From the NCBI GenBank assembly GCA_027063105.1, contig JAMOSL010000028.1, positions 2,886 through 66,885 of the forward strand: 64,000 nucleotides of DNA. The letters are read 5' to 3'. The notes below the pieces were generated by a model. That model saw nothing but the letters and a program-made list of their open reading frames with translations. It had not been told where the DNA came from and ran no database searches. The DNA is from Campylobacteraceae bacterium. GTDB lineage: Bacteria > Campylobacterota > Campylobacteria > Campylobacterales > Sulfurovaceae. Numbering within the stretch: position 1 is the first letter of the stretch; each line of letters opens with the position of its first letter. Below, in pieces: positions 1,602-28,222 of the stretch. The position numbers and the translations under genes were made by a program.

Positions 1602-3127
1602 TATTTTGCCTCCTTAATTGTCTTACTAAGTATTATTGTCTCTTTTGCTTCAGCAGTTTGTGCCTTTTCATGCATAAAACTAATTAATGCTTTCACACTT
1701 GTATCAATTGGTTCTAAAACAGGTTTAGGATATACGCCAAGCCATATAACAATAGCTACAAGAGGAACAAGAGCAGTTAATTCTCTACCATTTAAGTCTG
1801 GTAAATTTTCATTTTTTTCATTTGTAATTGGTCCAAAGAAAGTTCTTTTATATAGTCTTAACATATAAACTGCACCAAGTATAATAGTTGTACCAGCTAG
1901 TATAGTTGCAATTGGAGATATACTATAGAAACCTAGAAGAACTAGAAATTCTCCAACAAAACCGATAGTTAAAGGTAATCCAACTGATGCCATTAACATA
2001 ATACCAAAGATAAGAGCATATTTAGGCATAACCGAAGCTAACCCACCAAACTCACTCATCATTTTCGTACCTCTTCTGTCATATATTACACCAACTAACA
2101 TAAATAATGCACCAGATACAATACCATGTGATAGCATCAAAAAGATTGAACCACTGATACCCTCTGCATTCATTGCGAATGTACCAAGAACAATAACACC
2201 CATATGTGATACAGATGAGTATGCAATGACTTGCTTTATATCCTCTTGTGCATAAGCTATCATTGCTGTATATATAATCATAATGACGGCTATGACAGTG
2301 ATAAATGGAATCATAATTACAGAAGCATCAGGAAATAACGGAAGAGAAAATCTAACAAAACCATAAGTACCCATTTTAAGGAGTACAGCTGCTAGTATAA
2401 CAGAACCAATTGTTGGTGCTTGTCCATGTGCATAAGGTAACCAAGTGTGGAATGGAAACATTGGTACTTTAATTGCAAATCCTGCAAAAAGAGCTAAAAA
2501 TAACCATATTTGATAATCAACAGGTAGTACCAATGCATACCAATCGGTAATAGAGAAACTCCAAACACCTGATACACTTTGGTATAAATAAGCCATAAAT
2601 AATAGACCAACAAGCATGATTAAAGAACCTGTAAATGTATACAAGAAAAATTTAATAGATGCATATATTCTTAGAGGTCCACCCCATGCACCAATAATAT
2701 ATAACATTGGAACAAGAGATAATTCCCAGAATAGATAAAATACAATCGCATCAAGAGCTACAAAAACACCAATCATTGTCATCTCTAAAAATAGAAGAGA
2801 TATAATCATATTTTTAATATCTTTTTCAATACTCATGCCTATCATACCAAGAAGAGTCATTAGTGCAGCCATAACTACGATAAATAGACTGATTCCATCA
2901 ACACCTACATAATAATTTATGCCAAAATCAGGAACTAAAGGAATGAGTTCTATAAACTGCATTCCAGCATTTGTTCCATCAAAACTCATCCAGAGCCAAA
3001 TAGCAAGTAGTAACTCTACTGTTGCTACACTGATACCATAAACTCTAGCGCTACTTTTATCAACAACAAACCCCAACAATCCTGCAATTGCGGGGAAAAA
3101 TATCAATACACTTAAAATATTATCCAT
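1601..3127 (-). CDS. nuoM: NADH-quinone oxidoreductase subunit M
   Basis: 508 aa with the ND4/NuoM-type motif [20 protein letters not shown]. Operon position fits. Confidence 0.93.
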
Positions 3128-3138
3128 CTATCTACTCC

Positions 3139-5049: not shown

Positions 5050-5051
5050 TA

Positions 5052-5354
5052 TTACCCTTTCATAGATGCTAAATCATCAAGATTAAGCGTTCCAAATTTT
5101 TTGTAAAGAACAATTAAAAGTCCTAAACCAACTGCTACTTCACTAGCTGCTACTGCGATAATAAAGAAAGCAAACATTTGACCTGTCAAATCATTATAAT
5201 AATAAGACACTGCAGCAAAAGCTATATTTGCTGCATTTAACATAATCTCTGTTGCAAAAAATAACATCAAAAGATTTCTTCTTCTTAAAACTCCTACAAG
5301 ACCAACTGAAAATACTAATCCAGAGAGTACAAGGTAATGACTAAGACCTATCAT
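5052..5354 (-). CDS. nuoK: NADH-quinone oxidoreductase subunit K
   Basis: 100-aa, three-helix ND4L-like protein located between nuoJ and nuoL. Confidence 0.9.
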   Translation of the reverse strand: MIGLSHYLVLSGLVFSVGLVGVLRRRNLLMLFFATEIMLNAANIAFAAVSYYYNDLTGQMFAFFIIAVAASEVAVGLGLLIVLYKKFGTLNLDDLASMKG

Positions 5355-5908
5355 TTTATTATCTCCTCTTTTTCTATTATTATATCTTCTTGAGTAGTTA
5401 AACTATTATCCATTTTTTTACCTGCTAATATAATACCTGAAATCATTGCAACTAAAAGCATAAGCGCAGCAACTTCAAATGGAACTAAGTATTTTGTAAA
5501 TAGAACTAATCCAACTGATTGAGCATTTCCTGCACCTTCTATCGGAGGATACATAGATTGAATATTATCACCCATAATTGGAGCTATAAATATAATTACT
5601 AACATTAAGGCGATCATACCACCTAAAAAGAATACTAAATAATTTGATGTTGTATTCTCTTTAATATCTCGAGTAGCATCAAAGAACATCATTGCAAATG
5701 CATATAGAGCCATTACAGCTCCTACATATACTATTAATTGAACTACACCTAAAAAATCTGCTTCCAATAGGAAGAAGAAACCAGAAATAAAAACCATGCC
5801 TCCAGCTAGTGAAGTCATAGCATAAAGTATATTTTTTGTTAAAACCGTTACTAAAAAAAGTCCTATAGTTAGGACTGAAAATAAATAAAAGGCTATTTGT
5901 TCATACAT
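5351..5908 (-). CDS. nuoJ: NADH-quinone oxidoreductase subunit J
   Basis: 185-aa ND6-like membrane protein with a 4-nt overlap with nuoK. Operon position fits. Confidence 0.88.
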   Translation of the reverse strand: MYEQIAFYLFSVLTIGLFLVTVLTKNILYAMTSLAGGMVFISGFFFLLEADFLGVVQLIVYVGAVMALYAFAMMFFDATRDIKENTTSNYLVFFLGGMIALMLVIIFIAPIMGDNIQSMYPPIEGAGNAQSVGLVLFTKYLVPFEVAALMLLVAMISGIILAGKKMDNSLTTQEDIIIEKEEIIK

Positions 5909-5925
5909 TTTTTCTCCTTTTTATT

Positions 5926-6549
5926 TTAGTACGCAAGTGGCGTTTTCTTGATATTCTCATCAGCATTTGGACTAACAGCACCAAATCCATCAAATTCTTT
6001 CTGTTGCTTAAGTGCATCAATAGGTGTTAGCATATCTTCAAATAATGAAAAACTAGCTCTCTGTTCCGAAGCTGTTTCATATCGTCCACCATGAACAATT
6101 GCAAGTTCAGGACACACTTCTGCACAATATCCACAAAATATGCATCTACCAAAGTTAATTGTATATTCACTAACCTCTTTTCTTTGATTTTCATCATATC
6201 TTGTATCCATTTTAATACAATCAGAGATACAAATTTTTTCACATAATCCACACCCAATACATCTATAGTGACCACTTTCAAGAAGTCTTAACATATCATG
6301 TATTGCTCTATATCTTGGAGAAATAGGAAGCTTCTCTAAAGGATATTTAATTGTATGCATTTTACCACCAAAGAGAGCATTTTTCATCTCTCTAAGGGTT
6401 ACCCATAGTCCAACAAAAAGTTCACCTTTAACAGTTCTTTTTGCTACTTGACCGAACTTACCTAATCCTGTTTCAGGGGTATGTTCTAAATCTAACATTC
6501 TGTAAGATTGTTCTCCTACATTTCTATTTTTAAATTCTTCTAAACTCAT
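5926..6549 (-). CDS. nuoI: NADH-quinone oxidoreductase subunit I (2x[4Fe-4S] ferredoxin-type)
   Basis: Two CxxCxxCxxxCP-type motifs (CIGCGLCEKIC and CIFCGYCAEVCP). 207 aa. Confidence 0.92.
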   Translation of the reverse strand: MSLEEFKNRNVGEQSYRMLDLEHTPETGLGKFGQVAKRTVKGELFVGLWVTLREMKNALFGGKMHTIKYPLEKLPISPRYRAIHDMLRLLESGHYRCIGCGLCEKICISDCIKMDTRYDENQRKEVSEYTINFGRCIFCGYCAEVCPELAIVHGGRYETASEQRASFSLFEDMLTPIDALKQQKEFDGFGAVSPNADENIKKTPLAY

Positions 6550-6558
6550 ATCTACTCC

Positions 6559-7587
6559 TTATATCATCATCACAATAGCTGTGATGAGAATGTTTACTAG
6601 GGCTAATGGCATAAGAACTTTCCAACATAGCCACATTAATTGGTCTGGTCTGATATGTGGCCAAGATGCTCTAACCCATAACATCAGAAAGAAGAAGAAT
6701 GAAATTTTAAGAATTATAATAAACCAACCAGCAATAAATCCTAAATCATTATATCCACCAAGGAACATTACAGATGCTAAAATAGCTACTGTAATCATAT
6801 TAGCATATTCACCAATAAAGAACATACCCCATCTCATACCACTATACTCTGTTGCATACCCAGATATAACTTCTGCTTCATGTTCAAGAAGGTCAAATGG
6901 TGTTCTGTTTGTTTCTGCAAATCCTGCGATTAAGAATAAAACAAATGCTACAGGTTGTTGCCAAATTAGCCACTCTGTAAATTCACCAGCTTGATATTCA
7001 TTGAAATCTACTAGAGATAATGAACCAACTAACATGATAGGTGCTAAAATAGATAACCCTGTAACAACTTCATAACTTAAAAATTGGATAGCTGTTCTAG
7101 CACTTCCGATAATACCCCATTTATTAGCTTGAGCCATACCTGCTAAAAGTGGACCATATAATCCAGCAGCCATCATTCCTAAAACAAATAATATACCAAC
7201 ATTTATATCAGCTGCTATTGATGGTACAAATGTTCCACCTAATATTGGAATAAATTCAGGAATTATAAAGTCAGGAAAAACAGGTACGGATGCTAAAGCT
7301 ATAAATGCTGTTGCTGCTGTAATTGCTGGTGCTATTTGAAAAATTAATTTATTAGCATTTTGTGGAATAATATCCTCTTGAGTAAAAAGTTTAATACCAT
7401 CTGCTGCAATTTGTAAAAGACCAAAAGGACCAACATGAGTAGGTCCTAATCTTCTTTGCATAAATGCCAAAATCTTACGCTCTATATAAGTACCAAATCC
7501 AGCTATTGCTGAGATTATTGTCAGAATAATTATCGCTTTGATAACTACTCCTAGACTGGTAACTTCAGGTAATACTGTTGCGTCCAT
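6559..7587 (-). CDS. nuoH: NADH-quinone oxidoreductase subunit H
   Basis: 342 aa with an ND1-type signature (RRLGPTHVGPFGLLQ; EAEVISGYATEYSGMRWGMFF). Confidence 0.93.
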   Translation of the reverse strand: MDATVLPEVTSLGVVIKAIIILTIISAIAGFGTYIERKILAFMQRRLGPTHVGPFGLLQIAADGIKLFTQEDIIPQNANKLIFQIAPAITAATAFIALASVPVFPDFIIPEFIPILGGTFVPSIAADINVGILFVLGMMAAGLYGPLLAGMAQANKWGIIGSARTAIQFLSYEVVTGLSILAPIMLVGSLSLVDFNEYQAGEFTEWLIWQQPVAFVLFLIAGFAETNRTPFDLLEHEAEVISGYATEYSGMRWGMFFIGEYANMITVAILASVMFLGGYNDLGFIAGWFIIILKISFFFFLMLWVRASWPHIRPDQLMWLCWKVLMPLALVNILITAIVMMI

Positions 7588-7589: not shown

Positions 7590-10046
7590 CTACACCTTTT
7601 TAATTGTTACGATTTTATATCTATCTCTACCAAATAGAGAATATACATCTTTGTCACTTTTGAAATCAGGGATAGATACAATATCGCCACCCATTCTATC
7701 ATCAGCTACTACACCTAATACCATACTTTCTTTTCCAAAGTTAACTTCAACTTTATCACCTAAGGCTTTTGCCTTAGAAGGACTTGCATAAAGAGAGAAA
7801 CTCTCAAAGATTTGATGTGTTTTATCTGTGAAATCATTAAATTGTCTTTGAGGATTACATCTATATGCAATTTCTCCATCTAAGACAATACTATCATCAA
7901 ACTTGTTTACTTCAAAATCACTATCTCTTTTCATTAAGTTTTCTAAAGCATAACCTCTATTCTCTTCACCACTATTTGTATAACCATTTGGTAAATCATC
8001 AAAGTTAGCAGAGATAAATCCTCTTTTTGATGCAAGTAAAGGAGTCCAATCAATAGTTAAATCTTGATTACATCCTAAAGATTTCATCAAATCATTTAAC
8101 TCATAGCCTTTATATTCCAATGCAGAATTTGTTGGAGTAACTCTTTTATTCATATTTGTAAGAGTTCCCTCTTGTTGATTCATTGCTGGAATATCAAAAT
8201 CTCCACTTCCTAAAGCAGATATTTCAAAATCACCTATTTCATTATATCCAACAACATATCCATCTTCACTCTCATCAAGTTCACAAATTAATGCTACACC
8301 TAAAGAGTTGGTTTTTGGTGGTATCATCGCTACTTTCATGTTACAACTAGTTTCAATTAATGCAACAAGGTTAGCTAAATTTTTAGCTTTAGGATGATAA
8401 TATAAATCCTCACCTATTATTAGGGAGAATGTCTCTTTTTTCTTCATGATTTTAGTAAATGTATCAGCAAATTTAGAATCACCACCAACAAGAGTTACTA
8501 ATTCATTAACATCTACTTCAACCTCTTTCTCAACCATTTCAGGAACTTTCTTAGTTATCTCTTTACTCTCACCAGTAGCTTTATCTGTCACTGTTTCTGT
8601 GATAGACTTCATTACTTTCTCTTTAACTATTACTGTTTTAGTTGAATGGAATGAGTTAATATAATCTATAGTATCTTCTGCTAATTTTGATTTATCTGCG
8701 AATAGGTCTAAAATAAGATATAAAACTGCCTCTTCTTGACCGACTTTATGGGCAAATGTAACTATATTTTTACCCATATCTGATATTAAAGAGTCAGCAA
8801 TTGGATGGAAATATAAACCTGAACCTTTATTCATTTTTTGAATATTATTAAAGGCGTATCTAGCATTTGGATTATCATTTCTTAGACTAGCTCCAACACT
8901 AATTACAAAATCCGTTTTCATAATCTCTTTAAAATCACTACCATAAAGAATTTGACCTGCTGGTTTTGAATATGCTCTTAAGAATTGTTGAAAAGCATAA
9001 GCATCAGAGTTAACTAATTTTTTACCAAATTCATCTTTCAGAGTTTGAAGCATTAAAGCCTCTTCATTAGTAATAACAGAGTTGAATTTAATTGTATCAG
9101 CTTTTTTAAGTGCTTCTACAGCCCTATCAAATGCCTCTTTATCTTTACCTTCTACACGATTTTCAAAATCATAACCAAATCTACCAGCTCCACATAGAGA
9201 TACATAGTTCCACTCATTTGTAACTCTATAAATCTTCTCTGTCTTATCTTCTATCGATGTATGTTTTGTTTCATAATAAATCTGGCAACCACTACTACAA
9301 TGAGCACAAGTTGCAGGAACTCTTTTTAATTCCCATGCGTTAGTTGTATATACAAAATCTTTACTAACTAAAGCACCCACAGGACATACAGCAATACACT
9401 CACCACAATCACTACAATTTGTTTGGTCTGTTCCATTACTTGGCACAATTACAGATTTTTGTAATTTATTCCACATAGCATAGGCATCTTTTGGCATTAA
9501 ACTTTTCTGCTCTTTACCAAGCTTTTCTCCACCTCTAGGGCCTGTTTTAATGGCACTATCACCCATCATATCTTTACATACTGTAGTACATCGTTCACAC
9601 ACAATACATAAACCTGCATCATAATGTAAAATACTACTCCATTCTATAGTTTCTCTTTTTGTATCAGGTATCATATAACTCTGTGAGTCAACACCTAATT
9701 CTAGAGTATAATTTTGAAGTTCACACTCACCACTTTGGTCACATACTCCACATTGAAGAGGGTGATTAACATCATAAACTTCCATAATAGCTCGACGCTC
9801 TTCTAAAATCTCTTCAGTTGTAGTAGTAACTTCCATCCCATCTTTGGCTTTAGCATTACATGCATAGACTCTTTTTCCATCAGCTTCTACCAAACAGATA
9901 CGACAAGCTAATGTTGGCGAACATCTTGTAAGGTAGCAGATAGCAGGAATAAATATATCATTAGCACGGGCAGCATTTAGAATATATTCACCCTCTTGAG
10001 TTTTATATTCAATACCGTCAATTTTAATTGTTATTTCATTACTCAT
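7590..10046 (-). CDS. nuoG: NADH-quinone oxidoreductase subunit G (distal of two tandem paralogs)
   Basis: 818 aa. The N-terminus has 2Fe-2S Cys spacing (CYLTRCSPTLACRIC...C). Then come HPLQCGVCDQSGEC, CIVCERCTTVC and CSDCGECIAVCP, followed by a large molybdopterin-oxidoreductase-like domain. Confidence 0.88.
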   Translation of the reverse strand: MSNEITIKIDGIEYKTQEGEYILNAARANDIFIPAICYLTRCSPTLACRICLVEADGKRVYACNAKAKDGMEVTTTTEEILEERRAIMEVYDVNHPLQCGVCDQSGECELQNYTLELGVDSQSYMIPDTKRETIEWSSILHYDAGLCIVCERCTTVCKDMMGDSAIKTGPRGGEKLGKEQKSLMPKDAYAMWNKLQKSVIVPSNGTDQTNCSDCGECIAVCPVGALVSKDFVYTTNAWELKRVPATCAHCSSGCQIYYETKHTSIEDKTEKIYRVTNEWNYVSLCGAGRFGYDFENRVEGKDKEAFDRAVEALKKADTIKFNSVITNEEALMLQTLKDEFGKKLVNSDAYAFQQFLRAYSKPAGQILYGSDFKEIMKTDFVISVGASLRNDNPNARYAFNNIQKMNKGSGLYFHPIADSLISDMGKNIVTFAHKVGQEEAVLYLILDLFADKSKLAEDTIDYINSFHSTKTVIVKEKVMKSITETVTDKATGESKEITKKVPEMVEKEVEVDVNELVTLVGGDSKFADTFTKIMKKKETFSLIIGEDLYYHPKAKNLANLVALIETSCNMKVAMIPPKTNSLGVALICELDESEDGYVVGYNEIGDFEISALGSGDFDIPAMNQQEGTLTNMNKRVTPTNSALEYKGYELNDLMKSLGCNQDLTIDWTPLLASKRGFISANFDDLPNGYTNSGEENRGYALENLMKRDSDFEVNKFDDSIVLDGEIAYRCNPQRQFNDFTDKTHQIFESFSLYASPSKAKALGDKVEVNFGKESMVLGVVADDRMGGDIVSIPDFKSDKDVYSLFGRDRYKIVTIKKV

Positions 10047-10048: not shown

Positions 10049-12292
10049 TTAACTATCCATTTTTTCTAATTTTGGTTGACTAAATCTATAAGAGGATACC
10101 AAAGTGCTACTTAATCCCATATCGAAAGTAGGATTAATAGCAATAGTTCCTTTCATTAATGTATCAATCTTAAACACTCTTTCATAATTAACGCCATTTA
10201 AAGTAAATTTAATTTTATCTTTATCTTTTAATTTTGCTACTGTGGCAAATTGAGAAGAACCCTTTAATACAGTTTCATTACTTAGATATTCACTTTTATT
10301 TGTAAATGCAGAAAACTGTGTTCCCTTATTACAATTATAGATTACACTGCCATCATAAGTTGGAAGAGTTGAAATTTCATCTAAATCTAAATTTTGTTCA
10401 TGATTGACTATATCTAATAAATATCCTCTATGCTCATTACCTATACTATCAAAATAATCTGGTAATTCATCAAATTTAATTGATTTATAACCATTCTTAA
10501 TAGGCAGATGAGGTGTATAATCTATTGTATATTTATTATTTAAACCTAAAGCATTTGCAATATCATTTAATACATATCCATGATACTCTAATCCTACATT
10601 TGTTGGAACAACTCTCTTATCAACAGTTGTAAAAGTTCCTTCTTGTTGATTAAGAGCAGGTATATCTAAATCAGTATTACCTAAAGCACTCAATACAAAA
10701 TCTCCTTCTGTATTATAACCGATTGTGTACCCATTTACCTCATCACTAAGGTCGCATATTAAAGAAACACCTAAAGCATTAGTAGCAGGTGGAACTATAA
10801 GAACTTCAAAGTTAGTATGAATTTCTATCAGTCCAAGTAATTTTGCAATATTCTTAGCTTGTGGATGATTATATAAATCTGAACCGATAACTAAACTAAA
10901 TCCAGATTTCCTGTTTAAAGATTTTGATAAATCAGCTAATTCCTCTTCTCCAATATTGCTCTCTGCACTTAGATTTCCAATATCTAAATCATCTAAATAA
11001 TTTTTAATATTCTCATCATCACTATTTATTAAAGTTCTAGCTAAAAGAGCTGTAACACCCTCTTCACTACCAACTTCATACTTAATAAATTGTGTAATAA
11101 TTTCTTTCATTGAATAATCTTCCATTGGATGCATATATATTACTCTAGCTCGTTTTCGTCTACTTGCCATTGTAATATGATATTTAACCATTGGATTATC
11201 ATCATTAATTCTTGAACCTAATACTATGATACCTTGTGATTTAGAGATATTTTCAAGATTTCCACTATATAAGGATTTGCCTGTAATGCTATTAAATTCA
11301 TTTAAAAATTTCTGATAACCTCTAGCTTCATCACATACTAAATTAATATCATATTTTTCTTTTATATTTTGAAGAATTAATGCCTCTTCATTTGTAATAG
11401 TTGCACTAAATCTAATAGTATCAGCTTTTTTAAATGCTTCTACTGCATTATCAAATGCTATTTCATCTTTGGTTACATTATTATTAGCATAATCAAATCC
11501 AAACCTACCAGCACCACAGAGAGATGAAAACTCATAATTATTTGTTACTCGATATATTTTTTTCTCATTATTAAAAATGCTATCTGCTTTAACCTCATAA
11601 CTAAGTTGACAGGCAGAACTACAATGAGAACAACTAGCAGGAATCTTATTTAATTCCCATGCATTTGATGAGTATTTAAAATCTGTACTAACTAATGCTC
11701 CAACAGGACATACAGACATACATTCCCCACAATTACTACAATCTTCATCTAGTTTTGTATTAATAATAGTAGAGTTATATCCACCTGAACTGATTGCTAA
11801 AACATTGTCTCCTACAATTTCGGTACAAACTCTTACACATTTTTCACACATAATACATAAAGATGGGTCATAAGATATAAATCCCCAATCTTGAACTGGT
11901 CTATGTTGCTCTTTAGCCGTAAATGTTTGTTTATCTACCTCAAATTCCATTGTCTTATTTTGTAAATCACACTCTCCACTCTTATCACATACTCCACATT
12001 CTAAAGGGTGATTTACATCATAAAGTTTCATAATATTTTTTCGTTGTTTTTCTATTTCTGGAGTTGAAGTTGTAATAATCGCCCCATTAATAGCTTTTTC
12101 TTGGCAAGATAATATCATCCCTTCAACACCCTCAACGGCAACAACGCACATTCTACAACTAGCAATAGGTGCAACTTTTGTTAAGTAACACATAGTTGGG
12201 ATATAAATATCATTAGCTCTAGCAATATTTAATATTGTATCACCAGCAACACCTTCACAATCCTTACCATTAATTTTAATTGAAATAGACAT
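10049..12292 (-). CDS. Second NuoG-like Fe-S subunit (proximal paralog)
   Basis: 747 aa with the same cluster-ligand layout as the 818-aa protein (CYLTKVAPIASCRMC; HPLECGVCDKSGEC; CIMCEKCVRVC; CSNCGECMSVCP). It aligns with that protein along its whole length by eye. Confidence 0.8.
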   Translation of the reverse strand: MSISIKINGKDCEGVAGDTILNIARANDIYIPTMCYLTKVAPIASCRMCVVAVEGVEGMILSCQEKAINGAIITTSTPEIEKQRKNIMKLYDVNHPLECGVCDKSGECDLQNKTMEFEVDKQTFTAKEQHRPVQDWGFISYDPSLCIMCEKCVRVCTEIVGDNVLAISSGGYNSTIINTKLDEDCSNCGECMSVCPVGALVSTDFKYSSNAWELNKIPASCSHCSSACQLSYEVKADSIFNNEKKIYRVTNNYEFSSLCGAGRFGFDYANNNVTKDEIAFDNAVEAFKKADTIRFSATITNEEALILQNIKEKYDINLVCDEARGYQKFLNEFNSITGKSLYSGNLENISKSQGIIVLGSRINDDNPMVKYHITMASRRKRARVIYMHPMEDYSMKEIITQFIKYEVGSEEGVTALLARTLINSDDENIKNYLDDLDIGNLSAESNIGEEELADLSKSLNRKSGFSLVIGSDLYNHPQAKNIAKLLGLIEIHTNFEVLIVPPATNALGVSLICDLSDEVNGYTIGYNTEGDFVLSALGNTDLDIPALNQQEGTFTTVDKRVVPTNVGLEYHGYVLNDIANALGLNNKYTIDYTPHLPIKNGYKSIKFDELPDYFDSIGNEHRGYLLDIVNHEQNLDLDEISTLPTYDGSVIYNCNKGTQFSAFTNKSEYLSNETVLKGSSQFATVAKLKDKDKIKFTLNGVNYERVFKIDTLMKGTIAINPTFDMGLSSTLVSSYRFSQPKLEKMDS

Positions 12293-12293: not shown

Positions 12294-14303
12294 TTAGACC
12301 ACCGCCATTGATATATAATAACATCTCATACATCTCTCTGCTTCGCTAATAGCCTCTTCACCAGTAAATCCTAAATTAACTTCTCGATTATTATATTTTC
12401 TTTCATCAGTTTCTAGTTTTTCACTAACTACTCTAGGTAATCCTGGCATCCAACCTGTAACTTTTTCTTTTTTATCGTAAACTTTGAGCTTATTTAAATG
12501 GTCTTCCATTATTTCATCGTCAGTTAGACTAACTTTGCCATCATAAATATATCTAGTAATTACACTAGATGCTCTTTTAGCTTGTCCTACTGCATTAACT
12601 ATAGTCATAGGTCCATATTCACAGTCACCAGATGCAAATAATCCATCTCTACTTGTCATGTAATCTTTACCATTTGTTAAAATTGTATTCCAAGATGTTA
12701 ATTTTAAATCCCACTTTTCTGGTATAAGTTGTAAGTCTGCTGCTTGAGATACGGCAGGAATTAAAAAATCACAATCAATTTCAAAATCACCATCATCTAT
12801 TTTAACAAGTTGAGCTCTACCACCATCAGGGTCTGGAACTAATTCGAACTTGTTAATTAATAATTTCGTTATCTGATTATTTTCATCGAATATCTCTTCA
12901 ACAGCAGAGTGGAATATAAACTCAACACCCTCTTCAACTGCTTCATGATACTCTTCGTAAGTTGTATTTCTAATAATTGTTTTTTCATCTCTACGATAAA
13001 TCATAATTACTTTTTTCGCACCTTCACGAATAGAACATCTGACAACATCCATAGATGTAAATCCACCACCAACACATACAACTGTTTTATCTTTTAAGTC
13101 ATCAGAAGCAGATGAACCAATGCCATATTTAGTCCAAAGATTAACTTTATCAAGCATATCAATAGCACCCCAATAACCATCCATATCTGATTTTTCGTTT
13201 TTAGCTCTAACTTTTTTTGATAATCTTGTTCCAAAAGCTAACATAGTTGCATCATATTCTGCATCTATCTCTTCTAATCTTTTATCATCTACTCTATGGT
13301 TTGCATATACAGTTACTGCTTCCATAGAAGTAACAAGTTCAATATCTTTGTTATATTTATCTATTGGCATACGATACTCTGGAACACCAACAGCTACTTC
13401 ACCACCTAAAACAGGAAGTTCTTCAAAAATATCAACTTTAATACCTTCTAATGCTAAATAGTATGCAGTAGTTAAACCAGCTGGTCCAGCTCCAATAATC
13501 GCTACTTTTTTACCATCATTTTTAAGAGGTTTTGGTTCATATGGGTGTTGCCAATCTAATCCGTGGTCTGTCTCATAATCAGCACCTAATCTTTTAAGTT
13601 CCATAATTGATATTGGTTCATCAAGATTTGTTCGTCTACAAGCATCTTCACAAGGGTGTGGACATACTCTACCACATGTATGAGCTAAAGGCATAGTCTG
13701 TCTAGTTGCACCTAAAGATTCAGTGAATACCATATCTCTTACACCCTCAATATATGCAGGAATATCAACATGAGCAGGACACATATCAGTACAAGGTGCT
13801 GTCACCTTTGCAATATAATTTATATCTTGATCATAGTGTTTTGATTGCTCTTGATTATCAATACATTTATCAAATTGCTCTTTATAATGTTTCATTAAAT
13901 CTAATATTGGTTTAGGTACAGTTCTACCTATTTCACATTTAGACGTTACCATCATAGTTTCACTAACTTCTGTTAAATGTTCTATATCTTCATGACTTCC
14001 ATCACCTCTTGCTATTTTATCTAATAGGTCAAAGAGAATTCTACCACCCCATCTACCAGGAGCACATCTACCACAAGCTTCAGAGTATACTTGATATTGA
14101 GCTGCATATTCTGTAGCCAATCTAACAGCATCAACATCCTCTTGGAATATTGCTACACCGTCCCATCCAATAAATGCCTTTGAGCTTCTATCAGCAGTGT
14201 AATCCTCAGGGAGTTTGAATGCAGAGCTACTCCACTCTTCAGATGATTTACCTCTATTGTCAATAAATTCATCTTGCCAAGTAGAGAAAACAACAGCAGA
14301 CAT
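12294..14303 (-). CDS. Protein in the nuoF slot: NuoF-C-terminal-like Fe-S segment fused to a GltD/SudA-type FAD/NAD(P)H oxidoreductase
   Basis: 669 aa. EACGRCAPGRWGG...SKCEIG resembles the NuoF N3-cluster region with the third Cys replaced by Gly. PCTDMCPAHVDIPAYI and CGRVCPHPCEDAC are GltD/DPD domain-II-type motifs. There are two GxGxxG motifs (VAIIGAGPAGL, VVCVGGGFTSMD) and a terminal CMRC. It shares a TAATG overlap with the upstream 100-aa gene. Confidence 0.8.
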   Translation of the reverse strand: MSAVVFSTWQDEFIDNRGKSSEEWSSSAFKLPEDYTADRSSKAFIGWDGVAIFQEDVDAVRLATEYAAQYQVYSEACGRCAPGRWGGRILFDLLDKIARGDGSHEDIEHLTEVSETMMVTSKCEIGRTVPKPILDLMKHYKEQFDKCIDNQEQSKHYDQDINYIAKVTAPCTDMCPAHVDIPAYIEGVRDMVFTESLGATRQTMPLAHTCGRVCPHPCEDACRRTNLDEPISIMELKRLGADYETDHGLDWQHPYEPKPLKNDGKKVAIIGAGPAGLTTAYYLALEGIKVDIFEELPVLGGEVAVGVPEYRMPIDKYNKDIELVTSMEAVTVYANHRVDDKRLEEIDAEYDATMLAFGTRLSKKVRAKNEKSDMDGYWGAIDMLDKVNLWTKYGIGSSASDDLKDKTVVCVGGGFTSMDVVRCSIREGAKKVIMIYRRDEKTIIRNTTYEEYHEAVEEGVEFIFHSAVEEIFDENNQITKLLINKFELVPDPDGGRAQLVKIDDGDFEIDCDFLIPAVSQAADLQLIPEKWDLKLTSWNTILTNGKDYMTSRDGLFASGDCEYGPMTIVNAVGQAKRASSVITRYIYDGKVSLTDDEIMEDHLNKLKVYDKKEKVTGWMPGLPRVVSEKLETDERKYNNREVNLGFTGEEAISEAERCMRCYYISMAVV

Positions 14304-14605
14304 TACTTAGCCTTCTCTTCATCAGTCTGGGAGGACTTTCTTAATGCTATATTTTGACGAGCTTCTTTTGTTGCTTCATCGGCTTTCTTAACAACAATAG
14401 TCCAATCAACTTCATTAAATTTTAGTGAATTCATTAAATCATGACCTTGCTCTTTTATAACATCTGCACTTTTTTGAATAGATGAGAAATCATCAATTTC
14501 AAAGAGGAAGATACCAACCTCTGCAACTTTTAAATCTGTATCAATAAGCTCTACCATTCTATCATAAAATTCATCTTTCAAATGTCTTAAATCATATCGT
14601 TTCAT
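14303..14605 (-). CDS. Small Cys-free protein in the nuoE slot
   Basis: 100 aa with no cysteine, so it cannot bind the NuoE 2Fe-2S cluster. It sits 9 nt after nuoD and overlaps the next gene by 1 nt. Confidence 0.6.
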   Translation of the reverse strand: MKRYDLRHLKDEFYDRMVELIDTDLKVAEVGIFLFEIDDFSSIQKSADVIKEQGHDLMNSLKFNEVDWTIVVKKADEATKEARQNIALRKSSQTDEEKAK

Positions 14606-14614: not shown

Positions 14615-15844
14615 TTAACGGTCAACTTCACCAAATACAATATTGGTACTACCAATAATGGTTACAACATCAGCTATATATGTTCCTACTAAAATTTCTT
14701 GAAGTAGTCCTGTGTGGAAGAAGCTAGGAGCTCTACATTTTAATCTATATGCGTAAGGCTCTCCTTCTGATTTAATATAGAAACCTAATTCACCTTTTGG
14801 AGATTCTGTTGGTGCATATACCTCTCCAACTGGTGGTCTCATACCTTGTGTTACAAGCACAAAATGTTGCATTAAGGCATAATTCTGTGTCATAATTTCC
14901 TCTTTTGGTGCAGATATATATTGTGGAGAGTGTGCCATTAGTTTAGGTTCTGTTTTACTATGCATTGGAATAAGTTGTCTAAGAATTCTAACAGATTGTC
15001 TCATCTCTTCCATATATAAAGAATATCGTCCATAACTATCACATTTATCAGATACAGGAATATCAAAATCTAGTTCTCCATATAACTCATAAGGTTCTTC
15101 TTTACGAATATCATATTTAACTCCACTACCTCTTAACATCACCCCTGTACAGCCCCAAGATTGAGCATCTTCAGCACTAATAACACCAACATCTTCTAAA
15201 CGCATTTTCCAAATTCTGTTTTCTGTTAAAAGTGCTTCATAAGTATGTTCTATCTCATGATTTATTTTTGTACAGAATTTAGATAAATCTGTTAGCCATC
15301 TATTTGGTAAATCTAATGGAACACCACCTATTCTAACAGCAGAGTGAGTTAATCTAGCTCCACAATAATCTTCCATTAAATCCATTGCGAATTCTCTTTC
15401 ACGGAAAGCATATAAGAATACACTCATCGCTCCGACATCAAGTGCATGAGTTGCAACAAAGAATAAATGTGAAATAATACGGTTTAATTCAAGAAGCATA
15501 GTTCTAATAACTTGAGCTCTTCTAGGAACTTCAAGACCTAATAATCTCTCTACACTTAGGGCATAAGCATAATTATTTGAAGTTGAAGCTATATAATCTA
15601 ATCTATCAGTTGTTGGTAGAAATTCATTATATGTCATATTTTCGGCCATCTTTTCGATACCACGATGTAGATACCCAATATCAGGATAGGCTTTTTTAAC
15701 TAATTCACCCTCTAGTTCCAACACCAATCTAAGCTGACCATGAGCTGATGGATGTTGAGGACCAAAGTTGATAACCATAGTATTGTCATCTCTTTCAAAG
15801 TTTAGGTTTTCAAAGAATGGGGTTAATTTATTGGTTACTTGCAT
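14615..15844 (-). CDS. nuoD: NADH-quinone oxidoreductase subunit D
   Basis: 409 aa with the [14 protein letters not shown] signature; 49-kDa-subunit-like throughout. Confidence 0.93.
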
Positions 15845-15853
15845 ATTCTCTCC

Positions 15854-16645
15854 CTACTTTCTTTTACTTAAAGTTTTTGTACCTGTTGTATAGTCAACCA
15901 TAAATGTTTTACTATAAGCTATTGGATTTTCTTCTTCTTTATCTTTATTGATTTCTGAACCAAATGGAACTTCGTATCCGACTCTTGAGAACCTTTGACC
16001 ATCATATCTGTCTACATTAGATGGGTCTCTATTCTCTGGACCAATAACATCTCTATATTCTTTTCCAAATATTTTATCAACCTCATACCATGAAGCAAAC
16101 TCATCTCCTTGGAGTGGATATGTCTTAAGTAGAGGGTGACCTTCCCAATCATCTGGCATAAGAATTCTTTTTAAGAAAGGATGATTATTTGCTTTTATGC
16201 CAAACATATCAAACATTTCTCTCTCTGCAAAGTTCGCACTTTTGAAAAGACTAACAACTGATTTAACAGCTTCTTCTGGTTGAATACGACAGACAATTCT
16301 AACTCTTTTTGCCTCATTAAGATTTAACATTTGATAAAAAACTTCAAATTCTTTATCTTTTGCTAAATAATCAACTGCACTCATTTCGCTTAACATTGTA
16401 TATCCAGACTCATTTTTAAGAGTCTCTAATGCTTTAAAGTTATCTGTCGAATTAATAACTATTCTTAATTGTCCAAGCTCTATAGCAAATTCTTTAAGTT
16501 CAATAACATCTGACAGAGTTTTTACAACGCTATCAAAGTGTGAACCCTCTTCAACCATTTCTTTTGGAACTCGTGGAGCTACCCAAAATCTATCTGTATA
16601 ATAAGACTTTTTTTGAACATCATCTTTTGGTACATATTTTCTCAT
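15854..16645 (-). CDS. nuoC: NADH-quinone oxidoreductase subunit C
   Basis: 263 aa with 30-kDa-subunit motifs (FAEREMFDMFGI..F..HP). Operon position fits. Confidence 0.9.
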   Translation of the reverse strand: MRKYVPKDDVQKKSYYTDRFWVAPRVPKEMVEEGSHFDSVVKTLSDVIELKEFAIELGQLRIVINSTDNFKALETLKNESGYTMLSEMSAVDYLAKDKEFEVFYQMLNLNEAKRVRIVCRIQPEEAVKSVVSLFKSANFAEREMFDMFGIKANNHPFLKRILMPDDWEGHPLLKTYPLQGDEFASWYEVDKIFGKEYRDVIGPENRDPSNVDRYDGQRFSRVGYEVPFGSEINKDKEEENPIAYSKTFMVDYTTGTKTLSKRK

Positions 16646-16646
16646 A

Positions 16647-17159
16647 TTAAACTATCCTCTGCTTAACATTTTTTTTCATATCTGCTGACTCTCTTCTAAT
16701 TTTCTTTTGAAGCATCATCATTGCATATTGAAGGGTTTCTGGACGAGGTGCACAGCCTGGAAGATATATATCAACTGGAACAATTCTGTCAACACCTTGA
16801 ACTGTTGCATAAGTATTAAACATACCACCTGTATTTGCACAACTTCCCATAGATATAACCCATTTAGGTTCACTCATTTGGTCATATAGTCTTCTAGCAA
16901 ATTCAGCATGTTTCTTAGATAAAGTTCCAGCCAATATCATAACATCAGCTTGTCTAGGAGAGGCTCTAAAAATAGTACCCATTCTGTCAAAGTCATATCT
17001 ACTAGCACCTGATGCCATCATTTCAATAGCACAACAAGCCAAACCATAAGTTAAGGGCCACAAAGAGTTACTTCGTCCCCAGTTTACAAGTTTATCAACC
17101 GAAGTTAACGCTATTGGTAATCCAGCTGAACTGGCATAATTTACTTGATGTTGTGCCAT
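16647..17159 (-). CDS. nuoB: NADH-quinone oxidoreductase subunit B
   Basis: 170 aa with [10 protein letters not shown]...GSCANTGG...PGCAPRPE, the N2-cluster ligands. Confidence 0.93.
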
Positions 17160-17530
17160 TCAAGTGCTCCTTTTTTCCATGCATAGACGAAACCTATCGT
17201 CAAAAGTAATATAAACAGAATCATCTCTGCAAAACCGAACCAACCAAGCAATTTAAAATCTATTGCCCATGGAAACATAAATATAATCTCTACATCAAAA
17301 AGAATAAAAAGTAGAGCAATCAAATAAAACTGAATTGAAATAACATTTGGTTGTTTTGTTACCTCAGGCCCACATTCATAAATTGATAATTTTAGCTTCT
17401 GCGTATCAAGCCTTGCCAATTTCCGACTTACAATTCTAGCTAATGCTAAAGTTGCAGGGAAAGCAATAGCTGTCATTGCAAATAGAATAAAAACACCAAA
17501 ATATGGATGTTCTGTTACCACATGAGTCAT
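17141..17530 (-). CDS. nuoA: NADH-quinone oxidoreductase subunit A
   Basis: 129-aa, three-helix ND3-like protein ([15 protein letters not shown]). First gene of the operon. Confidence 0.9.
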
Positions 17531-27795: not shown

Positions 27796-28167
27796 TTATT
27801 TAGGTTTTTTAGTACCATATTTAGAACGAGCAACTCTTCTGTTTGCAACACCTGAAGTATCTAATGCACCACGAACTATGTGATACTTAACACCAGGTAA
27901 ATCTTTTACTCTTCCGCCTCTTACTAGAACGATTGAGTGTTCTTGAAGGTTATGACCTTCACCACCAATATATGAAATTACTTCAAATCCACTAGTCAAT
28001 CTAACTTTAGCTACTTTTCTTAAAGCTGAGTTAGGTTTTTTAGGTGTAGTTGTATATACTCGTGTACATACTCCTCTTCTTTGTGGACAGCTTACTAAAG
28101 CTGGTGATTTTGATTTTTTAATCACTCTTTTTCGTTCTTTACGAATTAACTGATTTATAGTTGGCAA
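27796..28167 (-). CDS. rpsL: 30S ribosomal protein S12
   Basis: 123 aa, [13 protein letters not shown]...[11 protein letters not shown]. Confidence 0.97.
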
Positions 28168-28215: not shown

Positions 28216-28222
28216 GTAAAAC

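What the first reader, a model, noticed from the sequence alone, without database searches (positions are those of the whole stretch)
12294..14605. Complex I input module rebuilt: nuoE/nuoF slots hold a Cys-free 100-aa protein and a NuoF-tail/GltD-type flavoprotein
**Gene order (seen).** The order is nuoA-B-C-D-[100 aa]-[669 aa]-G'-G-H-I-J-K-L-M-N, with spacers of 0-10 nt and TAATG overlaps.

**The nuoE slot (seen).** The 100-aa product has no cysteine, so it cannot carry the NuoE 2Fe-2S cluster.

**The nuoF slot (seen).** The 669-aa product lacks any recognisable NuoF FMN/NADH region. It does keep a NuoF-C-terminal-like Fe-S segment (EACGRCAPGRWGG ... SKCEIG, third Cys replaced by Gly). That segment is fused to GltD/dihydropyrimidine-dehydrogenase domain-II Cys motifs (PCTDMCPAHVDIPAYI, CGRVCPHPCEDAC), two GxGxxG dinucleotide folds and a terminal CMRC pair.

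**Established context.** In Campylobacter jejuni and Helicobacter pylori, NuoE and NuoF are replaced by unrelated proteins. The C. jejuni enzyme is reported to take electrons from flavodoxin rather than NADH.

**Inference.** This operon uses a different solution: a self-contained FAD/NAD(P)H-type oxidoreductase wired into the Fe-S chain. That implies a different or additional electron donor, such as NAD(P)H or a ferredoxin-coupled or bifurcating input.
Basis: partly seen in the sequence, partly recalled or inferred. Interest (0 to 1): 0.7.

Follow-up and report, generated by a model that had tools for sequence, protein, structure and literature searches.

The report
NADPH-type flavoprotein in Sulfurovum complex I
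In this Sulfurovum respiratory complex I operon the usual NADH-binding subunits are replaced by a small protein shared with Helicobacter, an NADPH-type iron-sulfur flavoprotein and a second NuoG copy; the arrangement is real and conserved, is already described for sulfur-oxidising relatives, and has never been tested biochemically.

Summary
The window carries a tight minus-strand operon: nuoA-B-C-D, a 100-aa gene, a 669-aa gene, two nuoG copies (G1 747 aa, G2 818 aa), then nuoH-N.

- **669-aa protein.** It has no NuoF FMN/NADH domain. It combines a NuoF C-terminal Fe-S domain with only three Cys, a GltD/NfnB-type two-cluster domain, and FAD and NADPH folds with an invariant Tyr-Arg-Arg motif. 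Its terminal CMRC is the displaced N-terminal CxxC of GltD-type proteins (a circular permutation).
- **100-aa protein.** It is not a new solution. It is the epsilonproteobacterial NuoX family (PF16514; PDB 2LXR, whose exact sequence is an H. pylori protein).
- **Conservation.** The same order is found in Nitratifractor, Sulfurimonadaceae, Wolinella and other Campylobacterota. Distant relatives (about 30% identity) lie outside nuo operons, usually next to a gene with a NuoG-like N-terminus.
- **Prior literature.** The arrangement and an NADP(H)/ferredoxin hypothesis are already published for Sulfurimonas and Sulfurovum (bioRxiv 10.1101/717884).
- **Possibly new.** I did not find this in the literature I searched: Helicobacter "NuoY" is an N-terminally truncated relic of the short NuoG paralog (hhalign 99.3%).
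- **Most likely function.** A reversible NADP(H):menaquinone complex I.

The finding is interesting but largely known.

The parts
14303..14605 (-). nuoX: 100-aa Cys-free protein of the epsilonproteobacterial 'NADH-UOR_E' family. Residues 1-74 are the conserved domain; residues 75-100 are a lineage-specific Lys/Glu-rich tail.
   Evidence: Pfam PF16514 full-length match, 1-74/74, E 1.5e-39. PDB 2LXR 'NADH dehydrogenase I subunit E', 76 aa, E 7.9e-24. That exact sequence is an H. pylori protein (P0391). No Cys.
12294..14303 (-). 669-aa flavoprotein ('F669') in the nuoF slot: a NuoF-tail domain, a permuted GltD/NfnB-type 2x[4Fe-4S] domain, and FAD and NADPH folds.
   Evidence: Pfam and NCBIfam domain hits. 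PDB sequence matches to StnC, NfnB and the C-termini of NuoF/HydB. 130 orthologs with invariant ligand residues.
13854..14222 (-). F669 residues about 28-150: NuoF C-terminal (cluster N3) domain carrying only three Cys (C77, C80, C123; Gly83 replaces the third Cys).
   Evidence: PF10589 E 4.7e-19. TIGR01959 nuoF_fam profile positions 294-409 of 410. Matches to NuoF, HydB and HoxF C-termini. Gly83 invariant in 130/130. AF2 gives a confident helical bundle at residues 59-149.
13563..13802 (-). F669 residues 168-247: Fer4_20 (GltD / dihydropyrimidine dehydrogenase domain II) segment with C171, C175, C210, C214, C218 and C222.
   Evidence: PF14691 E 6.6e-22, profile positions 29-111 only. These Cys are invariant in 130 orthologs.
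12579..13511 (-). F669 residues 265-575: FAD fold (GAGPAG at 271) and NADPH fold (GGGFTS at 412; Y436-R437-R438).
   Evidence: PF07992 E 8.4e-26. YRR is invariant across the family. The YRR triplet is the NADPH 2'-phosphate site of T. maritima NfnB according to bioRxiv 10.1101/717884.
12321..12440 (-). F669 residues 622-661: the permuted segment that sits at the N-terminus in GltD/NfnB proteins. It ends in C658-x2-C661, two ligands of the GltD-type clusters.
   Evidence: Aligns to residues 1-45 of NfnB-type chains 5vj7_A, 5jca_L and 4ylf_B (E 6e-4 to 2e-3) and to 9bov_A residues 528-567. R657, C658, R660 and C661 are invariant in family alignment A1.
10049..12292 (-). nuoG paralog G1 (747 aa, the short form) with a full set of N-terminal Fe-S motifs. 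Its C-terminal part (residues about 295-720, nt 10133-11410) is the region homologous to Helicobacter NuoY.
   Evidence: NCBIfam PRK08493 899.7 bits. Cys motifs for N1b, N5, two ferredoxin-type clusters and N7. hhalign NuoY versus G1: 99.3%, E 1.8e-20.
7590..10046 (-). nuoG paralog G2 (818 aa, the long form), ortholog of the single NuoG of Helicobacter and Arcobacter.
   Evidence: PRK08493 1085.8 bits over residues 5-817. 39% identical to G1 over nearly the full length. Contains an insert of about 25-30 aa between the two ferredoxin-type motifs.
14615..17530 (-). nuoA, nuoB, nuoC and nuoD (quinone-module and connecting subunits), upstream part of the operon.
   Evidence: ORFs. Pfam Complex1_49kDa and Complex1_30kDa for nuoD and nuoC. 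tblastn synteny in L001-L004.
111..7587 (-). nuoH, I, J, K, L, M and N (membrane arm and NuoI), downstream part of the operon.
   Evidence: ORFs. Junctions. Synteny.

Best explanation
The window comes from a Sulfurovum-like Campylobacterota genome. It encodes the epsilon-type complex I in its full form.

**What the 669-aa protein is (shown by sequence).** It is an NADP(H)-binding FAD flavoprotein with two GltD/NfnB-type [4Fe-4S] clusters. The eight Cys ligands include the C-terminal CMRC. This unit is fused behind the C-terminal cluster-N3 domain of NuoF.

**How it most likely works (inferred).**
- The NuoF-tail domain is the adaptor that docks onto the N-terminal 2Fe-2S/4Fe-4S domain of a NuoG-type protein, as NuoF does in canonical complex I.
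- The same kind of beta subunit appears to do this in soluble SfrAB-like enzymes, NADP-type formate dehydrogenases and GltD-linked [FeFe]-hydrogenases.
- Here the partner is the short NuoG paralog G1, encoded immediately downstream.
- The C-terminal domain of G1 (the part that survives as NuoY in Helicobacter), together with NuoX, anchors the module on the bona fide NuoG (G2).

**Proposed electron path (inferred).** NADPH -> FAD -> two [4Fe-4S] -> three-Cys N3-like cluster -> G1 clusters -> G2 clusters -> NuoI -> NuoB -> menaquinone.

**Predicted function.** The enzyme would be a reversible, proton-coupled NADP(H):menaquinone oxidoreductase. In a sulfur-oxidising, nitrate-reducing autotroph it would mainly run in reverse, using quinol and proton-motive force to make NADPH. 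A flavodoxin/ferredoxin site like that of C. jejuni may be kept in parallel.
For: **Domain content and absence of the FMN domain.**

**Closest solved relative.** The GltD-like domain of StnC (8oh5_C and 9bov_A, residues 102-567; E 3e-71 and 5e-77). This domain was shown experimentally to be a non-bifurcating NADPH entry that feeds an Fe-S chain (PMC10482914).

**Conserved cofactor residues.** The NADPH 2'-phosphate triplet YRR, eight cluster Cys and three N3-site Cys are invariant in 130 orthologs.

**Permuted C-terminal segment.** It carries the CxxC ligands.

**Synteny.** nuoD-X-F669-G1-G2-nuoH occurs in all 12 Campylobacterota loci that carry F669, counting the window (two are cut within G1 or before G2). 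They include Nitratifractor, Sulfurimonadaceae and Wolinella succinogenes.

**Distant relatives.**
- Most full-architecture relatives at about 30% identity lie directly upstream of a gene with a NuoG-like N-terminus.
- Six of the ten downstream genes scanned are [FeFe]-hydrogenases and three are molybdopterin/formate-dehydrogenase-like.
- The closest non-Campylobacterota relative (40% identity) sits in an SfrBA-like two-gene module.

**Both NuoG copies look competent.** Each keeps full Fe-S ligand sets.

**Link of G1 to complex I.** The G1 C-terminal domain persists as NuoY in Helicobacter complex I operons.

**Physiological context.** A nap nitrate-reductase operon and an SQR-like gene lie in the same window.

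**Published hypothesis.** An NADP(H)-linked role was proposed for the Sulfurimonas ortholog Suden_1824.
Against: - There is no biochemical or structural evidence for any member of this clade.
- The N3-like site has only three Cys in all Campylobacterota orthologs. All 19 soluble-type relatives keep the canonical four. The cluster may therefore be altered, of a different type, or absent, which would break or retune the proposed wire.
- No complex model could be built. The AF2 monomer was poor (mean pLDDT 58), so docking on G1 rather than G2, and the order G1 -> G2, are inferences from gene order and analogy.
- Why two complete NuoG Fe-S chains are needed is not explained by a simple linear path.
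- The direction of operation in vivo is unknown.
- Whether the genome also has canonical nuoEF elsewhere cannot be seen from one window.
Confidence: 0.55

Rival explanations
1. **Bifurcating or confurcating complex I (McNichol and Sievert hypothesis).** The NfnB-like FAD, or a branch point in one of the two NuoG copies, splits electrons. Quinol plus proton-motive force would then reduce NADP+ and ferredoxin together. In the forward direction, NADPH oxidation would be coupled to both quinone and ferredoxin reduction. This would supply both reductants of the reverse TCA cycle.
For: - F669 is homologous to the bifurcating subunit NfnB (4ylf_B, 5jca_L, 5vj7_A; E about 1e-63).
- It keeps both low-potential-type [4Fe-4S] clusters.
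- Two complete NuoG Fe-S chains are present, which would suit a branched path.
- The hypothesis was put forward for Suden_1824, and the authors report no other known route to reduced ferredoxin in S. denitrificans.
- NuoX and the NuoY-like domain, which in C. jejuni are tied to flavodoxin use, are retained.
Against: - The nearest solved relative is StnC, whose GltD-like FAD has lost bifurcation and acts as a plain NADPH entry.
- No NfnA-like partner is encoded in the operon.
- The Arg near flavin N5 is conserved in both bifurcating and non-bifurcating relatives, so sequence cannot decide.
- The same operon occurs in Wolinella succinogenes. From my own knowledge this is a heterotroph that does not depend on the reverse TCA cycle.
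Confidence: 0.2
2. **Soluble side enzyme.** F669 and G1 form a free SfrAB-like NADPH oxidoreductase, for example NADPH:ferredoxin or flavodoxin, or another acceptor. It would be co-transcribed with nuo genes without being physically part of complex I.
For: - All non-Campylobacterota relatives belong to soluble-type modules outside nuo operons.
- G1 has all its own Fe-S motifs and could act as an independent alpha subunit.
Against: - The pair sits in the middle of the operon, between nuoD/X and nuoG/H, with junctions of 1-2 nt and a one-base overlap. This holds in every Campylobacterota locus seen.
- G1 is a close full-length paralog of the epsilon-type NuoG (39-41% identity, 550-625 bits). It is only about 30% identical (about 250 bits) to the SfrA-like alpha.
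- The G1 C-terminal relic (NuoY) is kept in Helicobacter nuo operons that have lost F669. The C. jejuni gene in that slot is reported to mediate flavodoxin-to-complex-I electron transfer.
Confidence: 0.12
3. **Independent replacement.** Sulfurovum would have solved the loss of NuoE/NuoF in a way unrelated to that of C. jejuni and H. pylori.
For: H. pylori NuoY shows no significant similarity to F669 (E 0.49) and has no Pfam domain.
Against: - NuoX is shared.
- NuoY is homologous to the C-terminal two-thirds of G1 specifically: a G1 profile gives 62-67 bits and E about 1e-15 to 5e-17 at Z = 1e6.
- hhalign gives 99.3% for NuoY versus G1, against 59% versus G2.
- The Helicobacter type therefore looks like a reduced form of the Sulfurovum/Wolinella type.
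Confidence: 0.08

Closest known systems
Non-canonical complex I of chemoautotrophic Campylobacteria (Sulfurimonas denitrificans Suden_1824 / 1823 / 1822; McNichol and Sievert, bioRxiv 10.1101/717884)
   Same: - The same operon: an NfnB-like protein replaces NuoF.
- It is followed by a short and then a long NuoG.
- The preprint states this is universally conserved in Sulfurimonas and Sulfurovum.
- The YRR NADPH residues and cluster Cys are noted there too.
- A Sulfurimonadaceae locus (L003) is 69% identical with identical gene order.
   Different: Nothing essential. The parts of the preprint I read do not mention:
- the NuoF-tail domain;
- the three-Cys site;
- the circular permutation;
- the link between NuoY and the short NuoG.
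Campylobacter jejuni / Helicobacter pylori flavodoxin-dependent complex I (NuoX/NuoY; Cj1575c/Cj1574c; the H. pylori genes in locus L081)
   Same: - NuoX is the same family (PF16514, PDB 2LXR).
- NuoG (G2) is the same NCBIfam family, PRK08493.
- Helicobacter NuoY is homologous to the C-terminal domain of G1.
   Different: - Helicobacter has no F669 and no Fe-S half of G1.
- The donor shown experimentally for C. jejuni is flavodoxin, not a pyridine nucleotide.
- C. jejuni NuoY itself was not retrieved here.
StnC GltD-like domain of the Sporomusa-type transhydrogenase StnABC (PDB 8oh5; also 9bov)
   Same: - It is the best solved sequence match, covering F669 residues 169-662.
- It shares the same permuted order, with the CxxC segment after the flavin folds.
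- It feeds NuoG-type clusters.
   Different: - In StnC the GltD unit is inserted inside a NuoG-like polypeptide and passes electrons to a bifurcating NuoEF-like StnAB module.
- Here it is a separate protein fused to a NuoF tail, and there is no NuoE/NuoF-type FMN module.
NfnB / SudA / GltD small-subunit family (for example T. maritima NfnB 4ylf_B, P. furiosus NfnI 5jca_L)
   Same: FAD and NADPH folds, two [4Fe-4S] clusters and the YRR motif.
   Different: - The canonical order has the CxxC segment at the N-terminus.
- There is no NuoF-tail domain.
- NfnB works with NfnA and bifurcates at its FAD.
Beta subunits of soluble enzymes whose alpha subunit has a NuoG-like N-terminus: SfrAB-like NADPH oxidoreductases, NADP-type formate dehydrogenases, GltD-linked [FeFe]-hydrogenases
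   Same: - Identical full-length architecture at 27-40% identity.
- The gene lies directly upstream of the NuoG-like alpha gene.
- SfrB and SfrA are described as GltD-like and NuoG-like in PMC7483475.
   Different: - These are stand-alone soluble modules.
- They keep the canonical four-Cys N3 motif SCGKCxPCRxG.
- Assigning particular loci to SfrAB or FdhAB rests on domain content and my own knowledge, not on a test.
Mbx-like complexes with a gltD-related flavoprotein (Degli Esposti 2015, PMC4758237)
   Same: It is a precedent for a GltD-type NAD(P)H flavoprotein attached to a complex I-like membrane module. A similar cluster was seen in L071.
   Different: There the flavoprotein is described as substituting for NuoI, in a hydrogenase-derived complex with no NuoG and no NuoF tail.

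Membership tests
NuoF (complex I 51-kDa subunit) | FMN/NADH-binding domain (Pfam Complex1_51K, PF01512) | tested here: not met
   No PF01512 hit, even at E <= 1. NCBIfam nuoF models match only profile positions 294-409 of 410, at 55.7 bits against a cutoff of 558.
NuoF (complex I 51-kDa subunit) | C-terminal four-Cys [4Fe-4S] N3 domain (PF10589) | tested here: inconclusive
   The domain is present (PF10589 68.5 bits, cutoff 23.5). Only three of the four Cys remain; Gly83 is invariant in 130/130 orthologs. Cluster binding is not testable here.
GltD / NfnB / SudA-type NADPH Fe-S flavoprotein | Fer4_20 domain with eight Cys for two [4Fe-4S] clusters | tested here: met
   PF14691 77.9 bits. C171, C175, C210, C214, C218, C222, C658 and C661 are invariant. 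The order is circularly permuted.
GltD / NfnB / SudA-type NADPH Fe-S flavoprotein | FAD fold plus NADPH fold with a 2'-phosphate-binding Tyr-Arg-Arg | tested here: met
   PF07992 91.5 bits. GAGPAG at 271, GGGFTS at 412, and Y436-R437-R438 invariant. The role of the YRR triplet is as stated.
GltD / NfnB / SudA-type NADPH Fe-S flavoprotein | Flavin-based bifurcation at the FAD (NfnB only) | not testable with these tools
   Sequence does not discriminate. The nearest solved relative, StnC, is non-bifurcating.
SfrB-like beta subunits (NuoF tail + permuted GltD unit) paired with a NuoG-like alpha | Full-length architecture, with a gene for a NuoG-like N-terminus immediately downstream | tested here: met
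   Full-length alignment with relatives at 30-40% identity. G1 starts 1 nt after the F669 stop codon. The same adjacency is seen in most distant full-architecture loci.
SfrB-like beta subunits (NuoF tail + permuted GltD unit) paired with a NuoG-like alpha | Canonical four-Cys N3 motif SCGKCxPCRxG | tested here: not met
   19 of 19 distant relatives have it. The window protein and all 130 Campylobacterota orthologs have ACGRCAPGRWG.
NuoE (complex I 24-kDa subunit) | Thioredoxin-like fold with four Cys binding the 2Fe-2S cluster N1a | tested here: not met
   The 100-aa protein has zero Cys. There is no NuoE Pfam hit; the only significant hit is PF16514.
Epsilonproteobacterial NuoX (PF16514, NADH-UOR_E; PDB 2LXR) | Full-length match to the family model and a position directly after nuoD | tested here: met
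   PF16514 1-74/74, 134.6 bits. 2LXR E 7.9e-24 over residues 1-74. The same position is seen in 14 other loci.
Sulfurimonas/Sulfurovum-type non-canonical complex I | Order nuoD - NuoX - NfnB-like flavoprotein - short NuoG - long NuoG - nuoH | tested here: met
   Window gene order. Description in bioRxiv 10.1101/717884. Identical order in L001-L003, L086, L089 and L090, and in L082 with a split G2.
StnC (GltD unit inserted in a NuoG-like polypeptide) | A single polypeptide with a 2Fe-2S domain, the GltD unit and the NuoG remainder | tested here: not met
   F669 and G1 are separate ORFs. F669 begins with a NuoF tail, not a 2Fe-2S domain.

The most novel reading that the evidence does not exclude
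The full epsilon-type complex I (NuoX + F669 + G1 + G2) could be a branched, proton-motive-force-driven machine. It would take electrons from menaquinol and reduce both NADP+ (at F669) and ferredoxin or flavodoxin (at the NuoX / G1 C-terminal / G2 site).

If so, it would be the missing source of low-potential reductant for the reverse TCA cycle in sulfur-oxidising Campylobacterota. The flavodoxin-only enzyme of Helicobacter and Campylobacter would then be a reduced descendant that lost F669 and the Fe-S half of G1.
Probability: 0.2. Interest if true: 0.85.

Novelty: already known. Interest (0 to 1): 0.4.

Why it matters
How sulfur- and hydrogen-oxidising Campylobacterota make NADPH and reduced ferredoxin for the reverse TCA cycle is an open question. 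These bacteria dominate dark, sulfidic habitats and use the reverse TCA cycle to fix CO2. This operon is the leading candidate, but no enzyme of this type has been purified or imaged.

The analysis here sharpens the target in four ways:
- It defines the cofactor-binding residues.
- It shows that the NuoF-tail domain is a general adaptor to NuoG-like proteins across many phyla.
- It flags a clade-specific three-Cys cluster site.
- It shows the same operon in Wolinella succinogenes, which from my own knowledge is genetically tractable, so the hypothesis can be tested by knockout and membrane assays.

The link between Helicobacter NuoY and the short NuoG also gives a simple evolutionary series for the unusual complex I of two major pathogens.

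Tried and rejected
**AlphaFold2 model of the 669-aa protein.**
- Only homologs at 82-95% identity were admissible for the alignment.
- The model was poor: mean pLDDT 58, pTM 0.46.
- Only the helical bundle at residues 59-149 was confident, so I ran no fold search and drew no conclusions about distances or interfaces.

**Cys147 as a possible fourth ligand of the N3-like site.** Rejected: it is conserved in only 56 of 130 orthologs.

**H. pylori NuoY as a stripped-down F669.** Rejected: BLASTP E 0.49.

**Genome-collection scan with the family alignment.**
- Only four Campylobacterota loci were returned.
- I completed the survey with exact-protein look-ups anchored on NuoX.
- C. jejuni itself was never retrieved, so the NuoY result is shown only for two Helicobacter species.

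**Literature that could not be read.** Weerakoon and Olson 2008 and the S. denitrificans genome paper are not held. What they say is taken second-hand.

**RNA features.** tRNA and Rfam scans of the window found nothing.

**Origin of G1.** I considered that G1 was acquired together with F669 from an SfrA-like gene. G1 is far closer to G2 than to the SfrA-like alpha, so a duplication within the epsilon-type NuoG family is preferred.

Full report
**1. Observation**

The region is part of a compact minus-strand operon. The genes are nuoA (17141-17530), nuoB, nuoC and nuoD (14615-15844). They are followed by a 100-aa gene (14303-14605), a 669-aa gene (12294-14303) and two nuoG copies, G1 (747 aa, 10049-12292) and G2 (818 aa, 7590-10046). 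nuoH to nuoN (111-7587) complete the operon.

Junctions range from a 19-nt overlap to a 17-nt spacer. TAATG overlaps occur at the 100-aa/669-aa and nuoM/nuoN junctions. The 100-aa product has no cysteine.

The Pfam domains of the 669-aa product are as follows:

| Domain | Residues | E-value |
|---|---|---|
| NADH_4Fe-4S (PF10589) | 73-145 | 4.7e-19 |
| Fer4_20 (PF14691) | 168-247 | 6.6e-22 |
| Pyr_redox_2 (PF07992) | 265-575 | 8.4e-26 |
| Complex1_51K (PF01512) | none | no hit at E <= 1 |

NCBIfam NuoF models match only their last 115 or so positions. The one correction is that the second dinucleotide motif is GGGFTS rather than GxGxxG.

**2. Organism and conservation**

G+C content is about 30%. 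The 120 best protein clusters matching the 669-aa protein are 82-95% identical, all 669-670 aa long, and the named ones come from Sulfurovum, Sulfurovaceae or Campylobacterota. In a library clustered at 50% identity the whole clade collapses into one cluster. The next full-length relatives are only 30-40% identical.

**3. Anatomy of the 669-aa protein (F669)**

*Relatives with solved structures.* Sequence search of solved structures splits F669 into two parts.
- Residues about 28-150 match the C-terminal cluster-N3 domain of NuoF, HydB and HoxF.
- Residues 169-662 match the GltD-like domain of StnC (9bov_A E 5e-77; 8oh5_C E 3e-71; chain residues 102-567).
- The same residues match NfnB-type proteins more weakly (E about 1e-63).

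*Circular permutation.* The last 40 residues align to the first 45 residues of NfnB-type chains (E 6e-4 to 2e-3) and to 9bov_A residues 528-567. Relative to GltD/NfnB the Fe-S domain is therefore circularly permuted. The terminal C658-x2-C661 is the CxxC that normally opens the domain. This fits the Pfam result, where Fer4_20 matches only profile positions 29-111.

*Conserved ligands.* The following holds in a family alignment and in 130 Campylobacterota orthologs.
- Eight Cys are invariant: C171, C175, C210, C214, C218, C222, C658 and C661. That is enough for two [4Fe-4S] clusters.
- Y436-R437-R438 is also invariant. According to the Sulfurimonas preprint this triplet binds the NADPH 2'-phosphate in T. 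maritima NfnB.

*The three-Cys site.*
- The NuoF-type site keeps C77, C80 and C123, with Gly83 in place of the third Cys in 130 of 130 orthologs.
- C147 is not conserved and is not a substitute ligand.
- All 19 distant soluble-type relatives keep the canonical SCGKCxPCRxG.
- The three-Cys site is therefore a clade feature under selection. Its cluster type is unknown.

**4. The 100-aa protein**

It is a full-length member of Pfam PF16514 (E 1.5e-39). It matches the NMR structure 2LXR, 'NADH dehydrogenase I subunit E', at E 7.9e-24. That exact sequence is an H. pylori protein (P0391). It is therefore NuoX, the same protein that replaces NuoE in H. pylori, with a 25-residue tail added. It is not a NuoE homolog and is not specific to this operon type.

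**5. Synteny survey**

| Arrangement after nuoD | Where found |
|---|---|
| X - F669 - G1 - G2 (locus truncated in some) | window; L001-L004 (Nitratifractor, Campylobacterales, Sulfurimonadaceae; F669 68-79% identical); L082 (Wolinella succinogenes); L085-L090 (MAGs and metagenome contigs) |
| X - Y - G | L081 (H. pylori, Y 328 aa), L084 (H. burdigaliensis, Y 268 aa) |
| X - G | L083 (Arcobacter MAG) |

Every Campylobacterota ortholog of F669 that I saw sits between nuoX and G1.

Outside the phylum the picture differs.
- Full-architecture relatives lie outside nuo operons, and most lie directly upstream of a gene with a NuoG-like N-terminus.
- Of the ten such downstream genes scanned, six are [FeFe]-hydrogenases and three are molybdopterin/formate-dehydrogenase-like.
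- The closest outside relative (40% identity) forms an SfrBA-like pair with an 859-aa NuoG-like/molybdopterin protein.

Orthologs are inside nuo operons. The wider family is not, but its constant neighbour is a NuoG-like domain, which supports an interface with NuoG.

**6. The two NuoG copies and NuoY**

Both copies keep the Cys/His motifs for N1b, N5 and two ferredoxin-type clusters. All G1 copies and most G2 copies also keep N7. G2 carries an insert of about 25-30 residues. G1 and G2 are 39-41% identical over their full length. That is far closer than either is to the SfrA-like alpha, so they are paralogs within the epsilon-type NuoG family.

H. pylori NuoY has no Pfam domain and no similarity to F669 (E 0.49). 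It does align to the C-terminal part of G1.

| Comparison | Result |
|---|---|
| BLASTP, H. pylori NuoY vs window G1 | E 4e-12 |
| Profile of six G1 vs H. pylori and H. burdigaliensis NuoY (Z = 1e6) | 66.9 and 62.5 bits; E 5e-17 and 1e-15 |
| Profile of G2 vs the same two NuoY | 6.9 and 26.9 bits |
| hhalign, NuoY vs G1 | 99.3%, E 1.8e-20, 290 columns (NuoY 13-307 to G1 295-720) |
| hhalign, NuoY vs G2 | 59% |

Helicobacter NuoY is therefore an N-terminally truncated relic of the short NuoG paralog. I found no statement of this in the literature I could search. C. jejuni NuoY was not retrieved, so extending the result to it is an inference.

**7. Literature**

A 2019 preprint (10.1101/717884) makes the following points.
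- In S. denitrificans, Suden_1824 replaces NuoF and is an NfnB homolog with conserved NADPH and cluster residues.
- Two NuoG copies follow it, Suden_1823 (short) and Suden_1822 (long).
- This composition is 'universally conserved' in Sulfurimonas and Sulfurovum.
- Weerakoon and Olson (2008) had already noted it.
- The authors propose reverse electron transport that reduces NADP+ and ferredoxin together.

Other papers give useful context.
- The Stn cryo-EM paper shows that the GltD-like unit of StnC is a non-bifurcating NADPH entry.
- The earlier Stn paper places SfrB and SfrA in the same GltD-like and NuoG-like families.
- Degli Esposti (2015) describes mbx-like complexes with a gltD-related flavoprotein.
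- A 2019 review states that A. butzleri has canonical nuoEF, so the phylum holds several operon types.

**8. Mechanism**

*Shown.* Domain content, ligand and NADPH-motif conservation, the permutation, the strict operon position, the family-wide adjacency to NuoG-like genes, and the homology between NuoY and G1.

*Inferred.*
- The NuoF-tail domain docks F669 onto a NuoG N-terminal domain, most simply G1.
- The G1 C-terminal domain and NuoX hold the module on G2.
- Electrons pass NADPH -> FAD -> 2x[4Fe-4S] -> three-Cys cluster -> G1 -> G2 -> NuoI -> NuoB -> menaquinone.
- The reaction is reversible. The window also carries a nap nitrate-reductase operon and an SQR-like gene, which suggests a sulfur-oxidising, nitrate-reducing lifestyle. 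In such an organism the useful direction is proton-motive-force-driven NADP+ reduction.

I put the main explanation at 0.55, the bifurcating version at 0.2 and a detached soluble enzyme at 0.12.

*Open points.* The role of a second complete NuoG chain and the nature of the three-Cys site remain unexplained.

**9. Verdict**

The feature is real, conserved and biologically important. Both its gene-level description and the NADP(H)/ferredoxin hypothesis are already published, so I class it as already known.

The claim of a solution different from that of C. jejuni and H. pylori is not.

The added value here is:
- the detailed cofactor map;
- the circular permutation;
- the clade-specific three-Cys site;
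- the wider family context;
- the presence of the same operon in Wolinella;
- the NuoY-G1 relationship.

Noticed in passing
L081 6234-7220 (H. pylori), L084 6231-7037 (H. burdigaliensis); window 10133-11410: The 'NuoY' protein that fills the nuoF slot in Helicobacter is homologous to the C-terminal two-thirds of the short NuoG paralog G1 (hhalign 99.3%, E 1.8e-20), not to G2 or F669. It looks like an N-terminally truncated second NuoG. I did not find this stated in the searched literature.
   Followed up: yes
L083 6001-8732 (Arcobacter sp. MAG): A third operon variant: nuoD-nuoX is followed directly by a single 823-aa NuoG, with neither F669 nor NuoY. NuoX therefore occurs with three different neighbours, and its partner is probably NuoG or the core complex.
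   Followed up: partly
L082 10445-12234 (Wolinella succinogenes): The long NuoG (G2) is called as two genes (309 aa, then a second one from 11529) with a gap of about 150 nt. This could be a frameshift, a real split or an annotation issue.
   Followed up: no
L022, L050, L033, L071 (Ktedonobacter, Limnocylindria, Acidobacteriota and Fermentibacteraceae MAGs): GltD-type or StnC-like fused flavoproteins lie within a few kb of NuoB/NuoD homologs. L071 is a complete mbx-like cluster ending in a GltD-like gene. These may be other cases of NADPH-type flavoproteins attached to complex I-like modules outside Campylobacterota.
   Followed up: no
P0243, P0244, P0251, P0252 (alignment A1, columns about 75-85): Several of the closest non-Campylobacterota relatives also lack the third N3 Cys but carry an extra Cys directly before the first one (CCxxC), perhaps a compensating ligand. 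The Campylobacterota proteins have no such Cys.
   Followed up: partly
window 55269-63765 (+) and 48706-50175 (-): A periplasmic nitrate reductase (nap) operon: a 950-aa TAT-signal molybdopterin subunit, a ferredoxin-type subunit and a NapB-like cytochrome c. A 489-aa Pyr_redox_2 protein that could be a sulfide:quinone oxidoreductase lies upstream. Both fit a nitrate-reducing sulfur oxidiser.
   Followed up: partly
window 28000-44000: A long minus-strand gene cluster with very low G+C (22-26%, against about 30-34% elsewhere). It begins with a WecG/TagA-type glycosyltransferase and is probably a surface-polysaccharide locus, possibly acquired horizontally.
   Followed up: no
window 46594-47106 (-) and 47512-48330 (-): The 170-aa ORF matches only positions 100-242 of the IPP transferase (MiaA) model, so miaA may be truncated, frameshifted or started upstream at a non-listed codon. 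The neighbouring peptide deformylase ORF is 272 aa, with about 120 residues beyond the deformylase domain.
   Followed up: no
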